This document shows, one piece after another, positions 30,179-49,948 of a stretch of DNA of 64,000 bases (position 1 is the stretch's first letter; each line of letters starts with the position of its first letter). This DNA is from Malacoraja senta (Eukaryota), in the NCBI GenBank assembly GCA_038087875.1, contig CM075995.1, forward strand, positions 5,272,001-5,336,000, in the 5' to 3' direction. A program made the translations under genes and the position numbers. The notes beneath the pieces were generated by a model. The model was not told the DNA's origin. It saw only the letters and a list, made by a program, of their open reading frames with translations, and searched no databases.

Positions 30179-31365
30179 CAGTGCCCTCCATAATGTTTGG
30201 GACAAAGACCCATCATTTATTTATTTGCCTCTGTACTCCACAATTTGAGATTTGTAATAGAAAAAATCACATGTGGTTAAAGAGCACATTGTCAGATTTT
30301 AATAAAGGCCATTTTTATACATTTTGGTTTCACCATGTAGAAATTACAGCAGTATATATACATAGTCCCCCCATTTCAGGGCACCATAATGTTTGGGACA
30401 CATGGCTTCATGGGTGTTTGTAATTGCTCAGGTGGGTTTAATTGCCTCCTTAAAATAGAATGGCCAGGTCACAGTTTGCCAAGAAGTACTTAAAAGAGCA
30501 ACCACAGTTCTGGAAAAAGGTCTTGTGGACAGATGAGACGAAGATTAACTTATATCAGAGTGATGGAAAGAGCAAAGTGTGGAGGAGAGAAGGAACTGCC
30601 CAAGATCCAAAGCATACCACCTCATCTGTGAAACATGGTGGTGGCGGTGTTATGGCCTGGGCATGTATGGCTGCCGAAGGTACTGGGTCACTTATCTTCA
30701 TTGATGATACAACTGCTGATGGTAGTAGCATAATGAATTCTGAACTGTATAGACACATCCGATCTGCTCAAATTCAAACAAGTGCTGCAAAACTCAGTGG
30801 CCTGCGGTTCATTCTACAGCAAGACAATGATCCCAAACATACTGCTAAAGCAACAAAGGAGTTTTTCAAAGCTAAAAAATTGTCAATTCTTGTGGCCAAG
30901 TCAATTACCCGATCTGAACCTATTTGAGCATGCCTTTTATATGCTGAAGAGAAAACTGGAGGGGACTAGCCCCCAAAACCAGCATAAGCTAAAGTTGGCT
31001 GCAATACATGCCTGGCAGAGCATCACCAGAGAAGACACCCAGCAACTGGTGATGTCCATGAATCGCAGACTTCAAGCAGTCATTGCATGCAAAGGATATG
31101 CAACAAAATACTAAACATGACTACTTCAATTTACATTACATTGCTGTGTCCCAAACATTATGGTGCCCTGAAATGGGGGGACTATGTGTAAACACTGCTG
31201 TAATTTCTACATGGTGAAACCAAAATGTATAAAAATGGTCTTTATTAAAATCTGCCAATGTGCACTTTAACCACATGTGATTTTTTCTATTACAAATCTC
31301 AAATTGTGGAGTACAGAGGCAAATAAATAAATGATGGGTCTTTGTCCCAAACACGGAGGACACTG
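30179..31365 (+). mobile_element. Tc1-family DNA transposon, IR/DR type, internally deleted
   Basis: TA flanks (30177-78, 31366-67); CAGTG termini; ~220 bp TIRs, each with two copies of ccataatgtttgggaca. Confidence 0.96.
30460..31114 (+). pseudogene. Tc1 transposase catalytic (DDE) region; N-terminal DNA-binding domain missing; frameshift near 30890
   Basis: VLWTDETKI, KHGGGGVMAW, QQDNDPKH, then WPSQLPDLNLFEH and GYATKY in a second frame. Confidence 0.93.
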
Positions 31366-34109: not shown

Positions 34110-34903
34110 GGGCGGCATGGTGGCACAGCGGTAAAGTTGCTGCTTTACAGCGCCAGAGACCCGGGTTCGATCCTGTACAGTTTGTACGTTCTCCCCGTGA
34201 AAAGAAAAGAAGCAAATAAAGGCAAACATAAGAACCAACCTTGGAGGGGGGAGAGAGAGAGAGATGGGGAAAAAATACCAAATAACGTGAGTGACCGTGA
34301 ATGAGGGACTTACCTGCAAGCCAGCCAGGAAACCCATTCGACCGGTGCCCTTAATGACCTGACCCATTTAAATCCGATAACCGTTTAATCTTTCCCATCC
34401 ACCAATACATCCAATTAGTTCAAATGGTAATTGTACCCGCATCAGACAGCTTTAAGAAATTCTCCGTGATTCTTCAGCAATACTTGAAGGTCAAAACACA
34501 ATTGGTGACACATCGTGTTAATACGATGTTAATAGGGATAGTTAACAAGCGCTTAACAGCGACACCCCCACAGTCTTGCGGAAAGCGGAGACTTTAATAG
34601 ATTTTTTTTCACCAAATTTCAAAATCCGAATTACAAAACATGTGGGGGGGGGGGGCTTATCCCCCACCTCTCAAGACATGGGAGTGATGCTTCCCACCTA
34701 ATCCCAACCGGGATTTCCGCCCATGCCACTGGTTGTTTCGGTTCCCTCCCACACTGCAAAGGCGTGAAGGTTTGTAGGTTAATTGGCTTCTGTAAATAGT
34801 TCCTAACGTGTAGCATAAAACTGGTGTATGGATGATCATGGTTGGTGTGGACTCGGTGGGCCAAAAGGCCTGTTTTCATGCTATATCTCTAAACTAAACT
34901 AAA
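34110..34903 (+). mobile_element. HE1-type SINE split by ~520 bp of foreign sequence (34200-34724)
   Basis: Head at 34110-34199; body and tail resume near 34730. Confidence 0.75.
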
Positions 34904-39908: not shown

Positions 39909-40491
39909 TTTCCAAGTCCAGCACATCCCTCCTGTATTACCAAAATTACCAAATTTTATTTTTCATTTATATTAATAACTTAAATGACAGTTGTTATAGA
40001 TTGCTGAACTGAATTGGTAATCATTAATTGAAGAAAAAAAATAAGTTGCTTCAGAAGTTTCCACACTGTATCGCTCTATGAAATGTATTATTTACACAAG
40101 CACACTTTCACATATTTTATAAGACAATTATATGAATGAGCTGTAAGTTTTAAACAGGAAAAAAATGCAAAGTATCTAGGTTTTGCAATGAATTATTAAT
40201 CACGTTAAATATTTTCCGTGCCATTTTTACAAGTTAATTTTTCAAAAATAAACTGTGATAAATAATTCATCACCTCCTTATTTAAACTGTGCTCTAAATA
40301 TTGTAGCAGGTTGAGTTTAGTATTGAAGGTGCTGAAGAGGAACCAAATAGATTTACAAAAAAATAATAAGTCCAATTATTTTTCAAATTGTAATATAATG
40401 TGATGAACAATCCAAAATTCCTGCTCCTTGTTCTTCAGAAATGACTATCCATCGCTCAGGAAAAGGTGCAGAAATCTCTTAATGAGGATAT

Positions 40492-43400
40492 AATAGTAAG
40501 ATTAAACGAGAACTTACCAGTTTGAAGTTTGATCTTTATTTTATGAGGAGTTACGTTGGTGATTACGTGAAGAAGACCTGTCAGGGCGCATGCGCGTCAA
40601 TCTTCAAAGCAGCGGTATGAAATCACAGACACAATAATTGAAGTAACATATTAAGATGAGCAACATGAGAACTACCATATGACCTTTTTTTTTATGAGAG
40701 AGGGTTGGGCGTGGCGGGCACGTAATTACCAACGTAACTCCTCATAAAATAAAGATCAAACTTCAAACTGGTAAGTTCTCGTTTAATCTTACTATTTTAC
40801 TTCGGAGTCACGTGAGTGACTACGTGAAGATTTCAAAGCTCTATGATTTTATGCCGCAGATCCAAATCCCGGCCTCACTGCATTGATTGACTTTGGATGA
40901 GAAACAATCAATAATGCGTTAAACATGAAATGGTAATATCATGCAATAACAATTGATTTGAATAATCAAAACAAACAATAACCCGTCTATCCCAGGGGAA
41001 GTAAACAGGACTTAATACTGAATTTGCAAACAGCCTCTCTCCGATCGGCGATCGGCCGATGGTAAACATTAAAAAAAAAAAATCATTTGACCACGTAATC
41101 AAATAATTCATTTGACCACGACCTATAAAATATTGCCGCTGTGAACATCCATCGTCCTAGCCGACGACGTTGCTGCTGCACTAGTGGAAAACGGATATAT
41201 ACACTTCAGTGTTAATACCTGCCTTAATCAACATTTGTTTTAAACCACCTTGAGATAGTCTGCACTGACACTCTCCTGTGTGGCTTCATGTAACTGATAA
41301 ACAATGCTGTTTCCACATTTCTTAAGGTCTTTATAGCTTCAATATAATGAAAATAAATGTGCCATTACACATAAACATGGATCAGTAGGTTATGCTGAAA
41401 CACAATTTTAACAAACTTGTGACACCTGGCCTGCTCTGCTTAAGCAGGACGCAATTATATAACATAACATTCTCTTCAGCAACTTCCATCCTGTCTAGCA
41501 GAAGTTTTTTCAAAATCTGCACTTGCTATGCTGAACCAATGCCATGAGCATAACCACTTTCATGATTAGTTTGGCAAATTCAGAGACATGCCAGGAACCT
41601 ACTGTCGAAACATCTTGAGGACCTCACTTACATCCCAGATCGCCATATACCTGGGTTTAGGAGGTTTAGAGTTGAAATTCCTTTCATCAATCCAGCTATG
41701 ATATGCTGAAACTCAATAGGATCTTTCCTGACCACATCCAAACCATACGATGACAAAGCACTTAAAGCTGTATTAATGGTGCTATAACTGAGCCCCTCAT
41801 CATCATAGAGTGTCAACAGGAACTCTAAAATATCCACAATACCTATAGTATTATAGTCAGTATTATTTTGTACACAATAATTTTGCCCCATTTTATTACA
41901 TAAGTAATATACCCCTTTTGAGTACTCTTTCTCCAGGCTACAGTGAGCATGTCCACTGTAAACCCAGACAATCCTTGCTCCAGGTATGGCCTTCTTAAAA
42001 CCTGCAAATTAACAAGTCAATACAATCACATAACAGATGACTTTCCCCTATTAGCGGATGCTCCAGTCAATTCCTACGCTTGGGAGCCACCAAAAAGAGG
42101 TTGGATCCCTAACTGTAACATCAAAGGGAAACCATGCTTGATTCAGCCAATTAGGTATTACAAGCACCCCCAAAGCGGCATCCTGCTTGATTTCTTGCAG
42201 ACTCCGACCTATTAAGCAAAATGGTAGGAAAATATATAAAACATACCACCTCAATGTCAAAGTATTAATTGCAACGGCCACCTGGTCTGGTTCCCATGAA
42301 ACCTGATGGGAACAGGCATCTGATGGTTGACCTTGATGCAAAACAAATCGATATCTGGCATTCATATACAAGTACTATATTTTTGAACATCTCCTTGTTG
42401 AACATTCAATCTATGTTGTCATGGAACTTTCGTGACTTGGAATCTGCTACTATGTAGAATCTACCTGGTAGATAAATAGCTGAAATATCTTTTCCAATGC
42501 ACCAGGCCCAAATTTGATTAGCCAATCTGTCACAAAATATCGACTTGATTCCACCGATGTGATTAATAAAGATGCCACTTGCATAGTATTGTCAATCTGA
42601 AACTGAACATGCAGATTACATTTGTTAGAGCAATAAGCCTTGTCCATAAAAACCTCTTAATAGTTAATTGCCCATGTCTGCAGAAGTGATGCCTCTTGCT
42701 CAGTTCATCTGCCTCCACAGTTGAAACTCGTATCCGTGACACCCCACCCGAGTGCACTGACATTCATCTGCAAAATCATGGAAGGCTGGTCAAGCATTAC
42801 CTTGCTATAACTCCTGGACACATGGTGAATCCACCATTGCAAATCAGAATAGTCTTTACTGATAACTGCATAGGTCTATTATAATGACCCAAATGTATCC
42901 TTAATGCCTCAATTAGCTTGATACAGCTGTCAATTAGCTCTACCATTTTTCCCTGGGCAGAGCACTTAATTGAATCAATTGTGACCCAAATAGTCAGGTG
43001 TTAATTTGGATTTCTCTGGATGGATCAGCAATCAGCGACTGAGCAGCAATTTTAGAGGCAAATGCCCACTGCTTACCCTCATGCATTCAGCATGGGATCC
43101 CGGCACATAGCCATGTTTGGATTCGTGTTTGGAGTTAATCCATACTAACCTTAGACACTCTTTTAGAGTGGGACTTATCAAAGCTGAAGCAGGTATCACC
43201 ATCCATCTCCTCCATTTGCTTGTACATGCCTCTGTACCAAGCATCTTGTTCGACTCCATTCCCCACAATCTTATCACATATGTGTGTGGTTCCATCTTCA
43301 TCCACTATACATCCACGTGGGAGGACTTATGCAACCTGCAACAGGAGCTGCCCCAGGCCTGTGTGCCTGTATTTTAGCACCATCTCGAGTGGGAGTAATG

Positions 43401-45207
43401 GCAGCCCTGCAAACAGGTGTTGCTTCAGGCCCATGTGCATACTCCTGTAGCACTCTCTCGACCACTCCTCCATTTGAGTGGGAGAAATTTTTGGCAACCC
43501 TTTACTAGGCGTCACCTCAGGCATGTGTGCATGTACTTTAGCACTATCTCGACCACTGTGGTGCACCAAGTGGGAGGAATGGCAACCCTACAAACAGGTG
43601 TTGCTTCAGGCACATGTGCATCATTCTGTAGCACTCTCTCGACCACTCCGACCCTTGAGTGGGAGACTTTTGCAACCCTTTACTAGGTGTTGCTGCCTGA
43701 CATGCCTTACGATGGAGCGTTCTTGAATTGCAACGAGACGCAATGTTGTCTGACATTGATACCCCTGGCTTGGCACTCACTCTGAGTTGGGGTTATCAGG
43801 TCGCTGCCTACAGCAGCCGCCAGGACTAGCCATGCAATTCGATACTCTGTTGGTATCCTCCTTCCCCAAACAGGCTGCACGTGCTAGCGACTCCAAATCG
43901 TGCTCCTTCCCGATGCCAACGCCGTCTATAGGGAAGAATTGGAGCGCCTCTAGCCCCCGTACATCAGACATAGTGGGAAATGCTGGAACAAACTTAACAA
44001 TTATTTGTCATAGGCAAAGACATTTATGTGAATGAAGACGCCCATCCCAGTTAAACCTGGGATTTATTTACTTTTAATATGAGTAATCCGGCGTCTTGGG
44101 GAAGAAACCGTGCACAGTCCCTTTTAATTAGCAGCAATTACTATGACGCCACCTGGTGTAACTCCCACAGGTGACTGATAATACAGCTCTACAAGGCTTC
44201 CCATCTCCTTAATTGAATAAATGATCATCATCTATCTCAGTATAATAGTCGCAATGTGACCAAGTGGTAACTATAATGTCTACCCTTTTGAACGCTTCCC
44301 AAAATTGCGTTCGTCTTTAATTTGGAGGGCAACCTGAAACCTCCTCAGAATTAGCAGAAAATGCTACTTTTTCACCTCGACACATAAGGGTGATAAACCA
44401 CTAATCTCACTTCCTGAGTTGGGGTTGGAGTCAGCCACACACTGACCCTTTGTACTCCTCTCCACTGAGGACATACATATATAACAGAGGGGACACTCCT
44501 GGCCAGGCTCCACATAGTTCAAACTCATATTGGCTGCCAAAGTCGGGGTCCTTGCCTCAATGAGCCGGGTAGTAACCAGACGACCATGCTCAGTCTGCAC
44601 ACCCCCTCAGGAGTCGCTGACCTTACTGTGAGCGACTCTAACAAGAAATCCGATGGCCACCGGCTCCTCACTTTACCGCGGACCGTAACCAGTATCCCCG
44701 CGGTCTAGAGAAACCCAGCGGCCCCATATTTAAAACATTTCTCTGGAGTCGCTGACCTGCCTGTCAGCGACTCGAAATAACAAGCCTAACAGCCACCTCT
44801 ATGGTGACCGCAGCTTGCTTAACCCGCGGTCTATAAAAAACCTGCGGCTCGAATTAAACCTCGGGAGTCGCGGACCGTTCTGACCACGACTCAACCAGCA
44901 AAACCCACCGGCAGCCTGCTACCGCACTCCCGCGGTCCGAAGCCGACATCCCCGCGGTCCACAATTTCTCCGCGGTCCACCGGGTTTTGCTGAATTTTTC
45001 CCATGTCCAGCAGGAACCTGTGAAAATGATTCCTGCAATGGACAACCTGAAAAGTAAGTTTAAACTTACCTGCAGGATTTTTCAAACTTACCGCTGGAGA
45101 ACTCTGTTCCTCCCAGCCTGTCTGCGCCAATGCGACCGACGTAATGACGCGCATGCGCCCTGACGGGTCTTCTTCACGTAGTCACTCACGTGACTCCGAA
45201 GTAAAAT
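40492..45207 (-). mobile_element. DIRS1-like tyrosine-recombinase retrotransposon, structurally complete, coding regions decayed
   Basis: ITR 40564-40599 / 45145-45180; ICR 40719-40830 complementary to both termini; remnants of RT C-terminus (IHPEKSKLTP..YLG, ~42930-43025), RNase H (..SALGWG..GGR, ~42660-42770; QIDNT), MT-like (SWEPD...YIFLPFCLIGRSLQEI...PNWLNQAWFP) and recombinase (LEFL..L...GLSYSTINTALSALS). Confidence 0.92.
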
Positions 45208-45545
45208 GGCTCTTTTCCCCTTTAGTTTCGTTCCAGGCCATGGAGCAGAAGACTGATTTCTGATGTGATCCAGTAAAGTTTTCTGTGTTTTACTCAGGTT
45301 TCCAGTATCCACAGTTACTTATATGTAATAGGAGCAGAATTAGACCATTCGGCCATCAAGTCTACTCCGTCATTCAATCGTGGCTGATCTATCTCTCCCC
45401 CTCAACCCCATTCTCCTGCCTTCTCCCCATAACCCCTGACACCCATCGAGTCCTTGAATGATACAGTGTGGAATCTGGCCCTTCGGCCCAACTTTTAAAA
45501 ATATATATATATATTTTTTTTTAATCTTTTAAAATCTTTTTATTC

Positions 45546-48882: not shown

Positions 48883-49526
<644 letters not shown>

Positions 49527-49948
49527 GATCACGTGCTAACTGGAAAACGTGCTAACAACGTGCTAACAGGAACATTTTTACACATTCCGGTAGAGACTTA
49601 CCCTCTGGAGTAAAAAATAGGCTTACCTGAAAATTTCGAGCTTTATTTCTTGAATAATTAATAAAAATGTTCACAAATCCGATCCAACTTTCAATTTAAA
49701 ACGACTGTTTTATTTGCTGATGACGTGACAATGGATCTGCCGTCTGCTCGCGTTGCGATTGACGTCACCTCCAAACCCTCCTCCCTCCCCCCGTTGTTCA
49801 AAAGTTGCCATGTCGAACTCTAGAGAGCTTTGGTCGAAGCACGCCCGCAGCCCGCCCAGACTGCTTCGGCCCAACCTGCACTCCTTTGGTCGACACTCGC
49901 TCGCCCGCTCACACCTCGGCTCGCGTCTCGGATCGAGCCTCGGCTCGG

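What the first reader, a model, noticed from the sequence alone, without database searches (positions are those of the whole stretch)
40492..45207. Complete DIRS1-type terminal architecture with an internal copy of the circle junction
Seen: 40492-40569 is the reverse complement of 40719-40796 (1 mismatch in 78). 40794-40830 is the exact reverse complement of the far terminus, 45171-45207. The two halves overlap on ATT, and the same trinucleotide sits at both element ends (AAT at 40492-40494 and 45205-45207). A 36-bp ITR (40564-40599 / 45145-45180, 1 mismatch) is also present. Known: ITRs plus an internal complementary region (ICR) are the DIRS1 hallmark, linked to a circular cDNA integrated by a tyrosine recombinase. 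Inference: ATT is the crossover core, and the empty site should read gagccATTatatcc on the minus strand.
Basis: partly seen in the sequence, partly recalled or inferred. Interest (0 to 1): 0.72.

Follow-up and report, generated by a model that had tools for sequence, protein, structure and literature searches.

The report
Non-autonomous DIRS retrotransposon with intact ends
This is a young copy of a jumping gene of the known DIRS type that has lost its copying enzyme but kept near-perfect ends, and its empty landing site and folded end-junction suggest a testable model for how such elements insert.

Summary
All repeats are real at the stated coordinates. The element (minus strand, 45207-40492) has the known DIRS1 layout of ITRs plus an ICR. 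Its RNase H, methyltransferase and tyrosine-recombinase remnants lie nearest a little-skate protein.

The ends differ from the ICR at 1 of 115 sites, yet the genes carry 13-14 frameshifts, some shared with contigs of another run. So this is most likely a non-autonomous family moved in trans.

In 21 distinct sequences the junction strand folds into two stems around the triplet, usually with a 6-nt spacer. End variants place the exchange after the first base (N|TT). This resembles integron attC x attG recombination, but it is inferred, and the recombinase folds like Cre. The scan noted similar folds on other DNA.

The parts
40492..45207 (-). Whole element, 4716 bp, non-autonomous DIRS1-like derivative
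   Evidence: Ends; empty site in X6 record 17
45205..45207 (-). Left (5') junction triplet ATT
   Evidence: retained in the empty site
45181..45207 (-). Divergent part of the left ITR, 27 nt
45145..45180 (-). Conserved left ITR, 36 nt
   Evidence: 1 mismatch to 40564-40599
43030..45144 (-). 2.1 kb with no detectable gag or RT homology, standing where gag and RT lie in intact relatives; multi-copy in runs X1, X6, X7
   Evidence: depth; length comparison
44597..44985 (-). Three ~127-nt units, each with a 28-nt hairpin (44611-44638, 44746-44773, 44865-44892)
43350..43690 (.). Tandem array of ~89-nt units
42960..43028 (-). Remnant of the RT C-terminal tail, followed by a deletion of about 40 codons in the RT-RH connection
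   Evidence: profile score 81 vs shuffles ~34
42373..42913 (-). RNase H remnant
   Evidence: Profile scores 236 and 217
41998..42372 (-). Methyltransferase (Dam-like) remnant
   Evidence: Profile score 294; homologues carry PF05869, mostly below cut-off
41040..41995 (-). Tyrosine recombinase remnant, 8-9 frameshifts and 3 stops, catalytic R and HxxR positions not kept
   Evidence: (PF13495, E 0.034)
40719..40830 (-). ICR: 40794-40830 complements the left end, 40719-40796 the right end; overlap 40794-40796
40744..40800 (-). Folded core of the junction strand: stem 1 (40800-40794 with 40750-40744) holds the triplet; stem 2 (40789-40781 with 40761-40753)
40564..40599 (-). Conserved right ITR, 36 nt
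40538..40563 (-). Divergent part of the right ITR, 26 nt
40492..40537 (-). Right extension, 46 nt; includes the 6-nt spacer 40495-40500 and the right triplet 40492-40494

Best explanation
A recently inserted copy of a non-autonomous, high-copy DIRS1-like retrotransposon family, probably in a cartilaginous fish. The master element lost its RT core and apparently gag, carries 2.1 kb of other DNA there, and let RH, MT and YR decay, but kept the cis-acting ends. Steps: (1) transcription from the left ITR (inferred); (2) reverse transcription by proteins of an autonomous relative acting in trans (inferred; shown for Dictyostelium DIRS-1); (3) both ends rebuilt on the ICR, which makes ends and ICR identical at each cycle (ICR shown essential in Dictyostelium; near-identity shown here); (4) ends joined at the shared triplet (inferred; no circle seen); (5) a tyrosine recombinase joins the junction to one genomic ATT, leaving the triplet at both ends with no further duplication (empty site shown). 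The exchange falls after the first base of the triplet (inferred from 10 end variants), and targets favour AT after the triplet.
For: Repeats. Domains: (1407 proteins at E<=0.001, best 5e-26); 10 of the 14 scanned carry RVT_1 and 2 carry Phage_integrase. Skate XP_055488383.1 aligns at 256/530 and groups with the window at 100/99. Empty site: X6 record 17. RT and gag absence: profile scores 29, 39 and 30-34 against shuffle means of 32-37, while RH and MT score 217-294; 9 of 9 control loci still gave gag 55-261 and RT 79-260 after 20% substitutions and 2% indels. Young: 1 mismatch in 115 ICR pairs, 0.4% per site (95% range 0.01-2.4%), against 4.4-4.7% flank divergence to organisms C and D. Decay older than the insertion: 13-14 frameshifts; X3 record 9 spans 7 of the YR frameshifts with only 3 gaps, and X3 record 15 spans the fusion point 43028 with 4 differences in 272. 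Multi-copy: X1 summed depth is 13.5 on flank bin 40097-40293 and 31,000-400,000 inside (not a copy number). Trans action of DIRS-1 RT and need for the ICR: PMC7192593.
Against: No genome was held, so no second full copy was read end to end. The family-level claim rests on short contigs, mainly of one low-depth run (X3), whose contigs could be an orthologue of this copy with uncovered flanks. Some breaks are private to this copy: indels at 42305 and 42310, and the base at 42406. Gag of the nearest lineage was not available, so a very divergent gag cannot be excluded. No autonomous partner was identified; P0094 (82/108 identical) is only a 126-aa piece. The empty site is shown with both flanks in one contig of one run of four, and its letters were not printed. 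The host group is inferred.
Confidence: 0.78

Rival explanations
1. An autonomous DIRS copy inserted long ago and decayed in place; the 2.1-kb segment is a later replacement at this locus, and the ends stayed alike by chance or local gene conversion.
For: Heavy decay; several breaks are private to this copy; no second full copy was read.
Against: The site is empty in an organism only ~4.7% diverged. Ends and ICR differ at 1 of 115 sites. At least 4 of 7 YR frameshifts are not corrected in X3 record 9, and the fusion point is spanned by X3 record 15. The 2.1-kb segment is multi-copy in X1, X6 and X7.
Confidence: 0.12
2. On the integration step, the published model: the cDNA becomes a double-stranded circle that the recombinase integrates as ordinary duplex DNA. 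The fold-back of the junction strand then reflects ITR complementarity or serves priming and end repair, not recombination.
For: It is the standing model (PMC7192593 Introduction; PMC3266345). Stem 1 follows from the known divergent-ITR pairing. The clade's recombinase folds most like Cre (TM 0.70) and less like the integron integrase 2a3v (0.53); the integron-integrase model scores 16.6 bits against a cut-off of 265 in 1 of 5 proteins. Shuffle-corrected stability favours the antisense strand in only 9 of 14.
Against: The Dictyostelium cDNA found was single-stranded, and junction PCR failed (PMC7192593 section 29). Targets do not share the 6-nt spacer, and no spacer swapping is seen in 17 right and 31 left ends; two-step duplex exchange would predict one or the other (reasoning as in bioRxiv 2022.09.11.507474). 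Stem 2 lies wholly in the right extension and keeps pairing through compensatory change.
Confidence: 0.55
3. The copy moved as DNA (Crypton-like excision of a circle, or segmental duplication), with no RNA step.
For: No RT core in this copy.
Against: Flanks are single-copy and join cleanly in a relative, which excludes segmental duplication. Near-identity of ends and ICR is what ICR-templated repair gives. Intact relatives with the same ends encode RT.
Confidence: 0.06

Closest known systems
DIRS1-like retrotransposons with short conserved ITR (AcaDIRS1/2, LgDIRS1/3; PMC3266345 Table 3, section read in full)
   Same: ATT at both ends; ICR overlap on the triplet; conserved ITR 36 (31-36 there); right extension 46 (48-49); ICR halves 37/78 (39-45/86-88); RH-MT-YR order.
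   Different: No RT core, no detectable gag, 2.1 kb of other DNA with two repeat arrays. The host is probably a cartilaginous fish, while the bony-vertebrate elements in that table have GTT, TTT or CTT and conserved ITRs of 102-148 nt.
Leucoraja erinacea XP_055488383.1 (DIRS RH-MT-YR, annotated as uncharacterised)
   Same: Best named match, 256/530 identical; same clade at 100/99.
   Different: A different family at 48% identity; its ends were not available.
TOC1 of Chlamydomonas, an active non-autonomous DIRS-order element, and the RT-less INT1 (bioRxiv 2022.06.16.496473, two passages read)
   Same: Non-autonomous tyrosine-recombinase retrotransposon; INT1 also keeps RH, MT and YR without RT.
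   Different: TOC elements have split direct repeats (PMC3266345), not ITR plus ICR.
Integron attC sites recombined with attI or genomic attG sites (PMC5027507; bioRxiv 2022.09.11.507474; passages read)
   Same: Imperfect hairpin with two paired boxes split by an unpaired spacer; conserved triplet in the outer box; exchange after the first base; loose genomic targets (GWT there, NWT-like here); no spacer homology.
   Different: The spacer is about 5-6 and 2-4 nt on the two arms (5-6 on each in attC); no extrahelical bases inside stem 2; the sequence is conserved, not only the structure; the recombinase is Cre-like, not IntI; no recombination was tested.

Membership tests
DIRS1-like retrotransposon | Inverted terminal repeats | tested here: met
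DIRS1-like retrotransposon | ICR complementary to both ends, overlapping on a 3-bp junction | tested here: met
DIRS1-like retrotransposon | Insertion at a matching trinucleotide without further target duplication | tested here: met
   X6 record 17, by coordinates
DIRS1-like retrotransposon | RNase H, methyltransferase and tyrosine recombinase in that order | tested here: met
   As broken remnants
DIRS1-like retrotransposon | Reverse transcriptase domain with YL/IDD motif | tested here: not met
   Only the C-terminal tail is left, power control 57
DIRS1-like retrotransposon | gag ORF | tested here: inconclusive
   Not detected with two profiles; controls detect it, but gag of the nearest lineage was not held
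DIRS1-like retrotransposon | Circular cDNA intermediate | not testable with these tools
   Only assembled contigs were available; the ICR itself mimics the junction
PAT-like / Ngaro-like YR retrotransposons | Split direct repeats at the ends | tested here: not met
   Terminal repeats are inverted
Integron attC site | Single strand folds into two paired boxes with an unpaired spacer and the crossover triplet in the outer box | tested here: met
   (predicted fold with covariation)
Integron attC site | AAC/GTT triplet and extrahelical bases | tested here: not met
   Triplet is AAT/ATT; stems are unbulged in alignment A3
Integron attC site | Recombined by an integron integrase | tested here: not met
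   TIGR02249 far below cut-off; fold nearest Cre
Integron attC site | Strand-selective recombination of the folded single strand | not testable with these tools
   G.T pairs favour the antisense strand 23 to 2, but 16 of the 23 are one column

The most novel reading that the evidence does not exclude
DIRS recombinases integrate the single-stranded antisense cDNA directly. Its joined ends fold into an attC-like site (stem with the triplet, 6-nt spacer, second stem), one strand is exchanged after the first base of a loose genomic N-W-T target, and replication resolves the junction, so no double-stranded circle is needed. The ends alone would then be enough for mobility, which lets gag/RT-less families such as this one amplify in cartilaginous fish.
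Probability: 0.3. Interest if true: 0.8.

Novelty: new variant of a known kind. Interest (0 to 1): 0.5.

Why it matters
The terminal layout itself has long been described. What this locus adds is, first, a filled/empty pair across species that matches the trinucleotide rule. Second, it appears to be a natural gag/RT-less ITR-ICR family amplified in trans, which shows which sequences are enough in cis. Third, it offers a specific prediction for an untested step: PMC7192593 states that the specificity of the DIRS recombinase has not been investigated experimentally. If the folded single strand is the substrate, a eukaryotic retrotransposon would use the integron-type route, and a recombinase needing only a three-letter genomic target would be of interest for DNA insertion tools.

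Tried and rejected
No whole genome was held, so copies could not be listed.

Searches that gave little or nothing:
- Pfam on the six frames gave only PF13495 at E 0.034.
- A word-seeded search with the MT piece found nothing among 143 candidates.
- Viral contigs held no relative or terminus match; metagenome contigs held no exact ICR match.
- Rfam: no match in 40300-45500.
- No RNA holder was listed among 24 runs; this says nothing about expression.
- Earlier findings by sequence and by place: none.

Readings rejected:
- Gag-like words I first saw by eye in 43700-44400 were not supported by any alignment.
- An RT-like 14-mer at 44058-44017 is at chance level and out of order.
- A motif hit at 34531 is chance.
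- Loci L049/L050 and L054/L055, where the right end runs on into the left end, look like palindromic assemblies through the ICR. They are not counted as circles, and L049 and L054 were dropped from the flank count (15 of 17 kept).
- L072 is probably a mis-called ICR; it was kept in the count of 14.
- Horizontal transfer from invertebrates could not be tested: no named bony-vertebrate DIRS protein was held for the tree.

What the 2.1-kb segment derives from remains open.
Full report
OBSERVATION. The repeats score 140, 75 and 69 bits against a best of 36 in 50 shuffles. Read on the minus strand, the element starts and ends with ATT. In the terms of PMC3266345 (section 10 read in full) it has a 63-nt left terminus, a 108-nt right terminus with a 46-nt right extension, and ICR halves of 37 and 78 nt. 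These sizes match the mollusc elements of that table better than its fish, frog and lizard elements. The window is rich in CR1/L2-like ORFs (family labels from my own knowledge), which with the skate hit below suggests a cartilaginous fish; this is inference.

CODING CONTENT. A search with one minus-strand frame found 1407 proteins at E<=0.001. Of 14 scanned, 10 carry RVT_1, 2 carry Phage_integrase and 6 have Dam hits, one above cut-off. Frameshift-aware alignment places an RT tail at 43028-42960, RNase H at about 42913-42373, methyltransferase to 41998 and recombinase at about 41995-41040. The best named match is Leucoraja erinacea XP_055488383.1 (256/530); an unnamed 126-aa piece, P0094, is closer (82/108). 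In a 50-row tree the window groups with the skate protein and two unnamed proteins at 100/99; no named bony-vertebrate row was available. Six reference proteins per region agree on 5 frameshifts and 3 stops in RH-MT and on 8-9 frameshifts and 3 stops in the recombinase.

WHAT IS MISSING. Profiles of the RT N-terminal and catalytic parts score 29 and 39, and two gag profiles score 30 and 34, all at shuffle level (means 32-37), while RH and MT score 217-294. Thirty single RT cores gave 31-43 against shuffles of 26-42. In 9 of 9 control loci, gag and RT stayed at 55-261 and 79-260 after 20% substitutions and 2% indels (gag rows over 50% identical were left out of the profile, RT rows were not). 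So the RT core is absent and gag very probably so. The distance from the left end to the RT tail is 2185 nt, within the 1993-2388 of 8 intact relatives. The DNA was therefore replaced, or deleted and re-expanded; two repeat arrays lie there. Its origin is unknown.

EMPTY SITE AND AGE. Four of 24 listed runs were laid, all as contigs. In X6, record 17 (769 nt) matches 45343-45205 at letters 4-142 (5 differences, no gap) and 40491-39900 at letters 143-734 (29 differences, 4 gaps): the flanks abut with exactly one triplet, as predicted. The letters at the join were not printed. In X7, record 24 matches the same flank from letter 144 and stops at 40491; its first 143 letters were not displayed. 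X1 has flank contigs with 0/325 and 1/258 differences, so it is the window's species or nearly so; X3 does not cover that flank. Flank divergence to organisms C and D is 4.7% and 4.4%. Ends and ICR differ at 1 of 115 pairs, 0.4% per site (95% range 0.01-2.4%). The insertion is younger than these splits.

A FAMILY MOVED IN TRANS. Thirteen or fourteen frameshifts in 2 kb do not fit so young a copy. X3 is a low-depth run that covers only the parts that are deepest in X1, so its contigs probably stand for majority sequences of repeats (inference). Its record 9 (41189-42015; 24 differences, 3 gaps) spans 7 recombinase frameshifts, so at least 4 are shared. Record 15 (42983-43254; 4 differences) spans the point where RT homology ends. 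X1 depth is 13.5 on a unique flank bin and 31,000-400,000 inside the element, including the 2.1-kb segment; this is not a copy number. Against this, some breaks are private (42305, 42310, 42406), most rows of the difference tables were not shown (709 letter rows and 141 indel rows), and no full second copy was read. Dictyostelium DIRS-1 RT acts in trans and the ICR is essential (PMC7192593: abstract, Introduction, first part of the Discussion, section 29 and passages read). Non-autonomous DIRS-order elements are known (TOC1, passages).

THE JUNCTION IN RELATIVES. A metagenome scan kept 80 of 458 related loci. Twelve of 80 show both ends and the ICR with the same plan, and 46 of 80 carry an ICR-like motif (the motif was drawn from the first cases, so core conservation is partly by construction). 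The right triplet is ATT in 17 of 17 ends and the left in 29 of 31, with GTT in 2 (counts include the window). In Table 3 of PMC3266345, 10 of 28 elements have unequal triplets, and 8 can be scored: six differ at base 2 and one at base 3 of the end triplet, and one at base 1 of the start triplet. All 8, and my 2, fit an exchange after the first base, though later mutation could explain single cases. After the right triplet the host bases are AT in 9 of 15 ends against 5.6% background (two palindromic assemblies dropped; ends treated as independent). The window's own flank fits.

THE FOLD. The ICR strand, equal to the joined ends of the antisense cDNA, folds at -19.5 kcal/mol as DNA (z -4.7), against -16.1 (z -3.0) for the other strand. 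In 14 distinct ICRs the triplet is paired in 13. All 14 are more stable on this strand, but the z-score is lower in only 9. I aligned 21 of the 46 loci, picked by hand as non-redundant and uncut, with the window. Two stems hold in 95% of 336 cells, with double changes at 6 of 16 pairs (0 of 500 shuffles; slid controls 31-49%), and RNAalifold finds the same stems. Two of the main double changes split along one clade boundary and may be single events. G.T pairs favour the antisense strand 23 to 2, but 16 sit in one column. The spacer between triplet and second stem is 6 nt in 17 of 22 ICRs. It stays with the element's right end in 17 of 17 (14 exact) and is matched by host bases at 1 of 31 left ends, in a T-run.

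READING OF THE FOLD. This anatomy parallels integron attC sites: a folded single strand, two boxes, an unpaired spacer, a cut inside a conserved triplet, and replicative resolution (PMC5027507, passages). attC also inserts at genomic GWT sites by a single cleavage (bioRxiv 2022.09.11.507474, passages). The Dictyostelium cDNA found was single-stranded, and its authors note the junction's self-complementarity only as a possible PCR obstacle. Against the parallel: stem 1 follows from known ITR pairing, there are no extrahelical bases, the triplet differs, and a model of the clade's recombinase (pLDDT 89) is nearest Cre (TM 0.70), with the integron integrase at 0.53. I give the folded-substrate model 0.3. 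The lead came in part from two earlier notes of this scan on other DNA, which are unchecked and not support.

LITERATURE. Ten searches found no paper on DIRS in skates, none joining DIRS with attC, and one hit for non-autonomous DIRS. PMC9210276, PMC6817897, PMC2685390 and PMC12901181 were seen as passages only. The papers of Cappello, Goodwin and Poulter, and Poulter and Butler, as well as Repbase and Dfam, were not seen, and no supplements were read. The family or the fold may be described there.

VERDICT. The observation and the DIRS reading are right, and the layout is known. The copy fails the RT test, so it is filed as a non-autonomous derivative, a new variant of a known kind. Interest 0.5, carried by the empty site, the trans-mobilised family and a testable model of the integration step.

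Noticed in passing
window 44597-44985: Three ~127-nt units, each ending in a 28-nt hairpin; one compensatory change between units, and unit 3 folds better on the element's sense strand (z -2.0 vs -0.5) while unit 1 folds better on the other. Possible cis signal; no Rfam match.
   Followed up: partly
window 43350-43690: Array of ~89-nt units (z -3.0 as sense RNA); joints in X1 and X7 suggest that unit number varies among copies.
   Followed up: partly
window 40491-40884 and 45022-45218: In runs X6 and X7 the ends and ICR are about 25 to over 1000 times deeper than interior bins, with a drop from 2.6 million at 40843 to 2,900 at 40873 in X6: sister families sharing only the ends, or short non-autonomous forms.
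   Followed up: no
window 45145-45207: The left terminus holds an E-box-like CACGTG and a GCGCATGCGC palindrome like an NRF1 site (labels recalled, no call); fits a promoter role.
   Followed up: no
window 40492-40537 and L001-L005, L012, L027: The right extension is nearly identical between the window and these loci, whose pol proteins are only about 50% identical to P0155, the window's nearest intact pol.
   Followed up: yes
L049/L050 and L054/L055: Contigs that read through the ICR into the opposite orientation; such assemblies can be mistaken for circles.
   Followed up: partly
window 30194-31353: 209-nt inverted repeats (97%) around a broken transposase-like ORF at 30454-30927; looks like a Tc1/mariner element (label recalled).
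   Followed up: no
P0020: A DIRS-like RT protein that also carries a PARP catalytic domain; fusion or gene-model artefact.
   Followed up: no
window 48885-49527: (TG)n run of 322 units.
   Followed up: no
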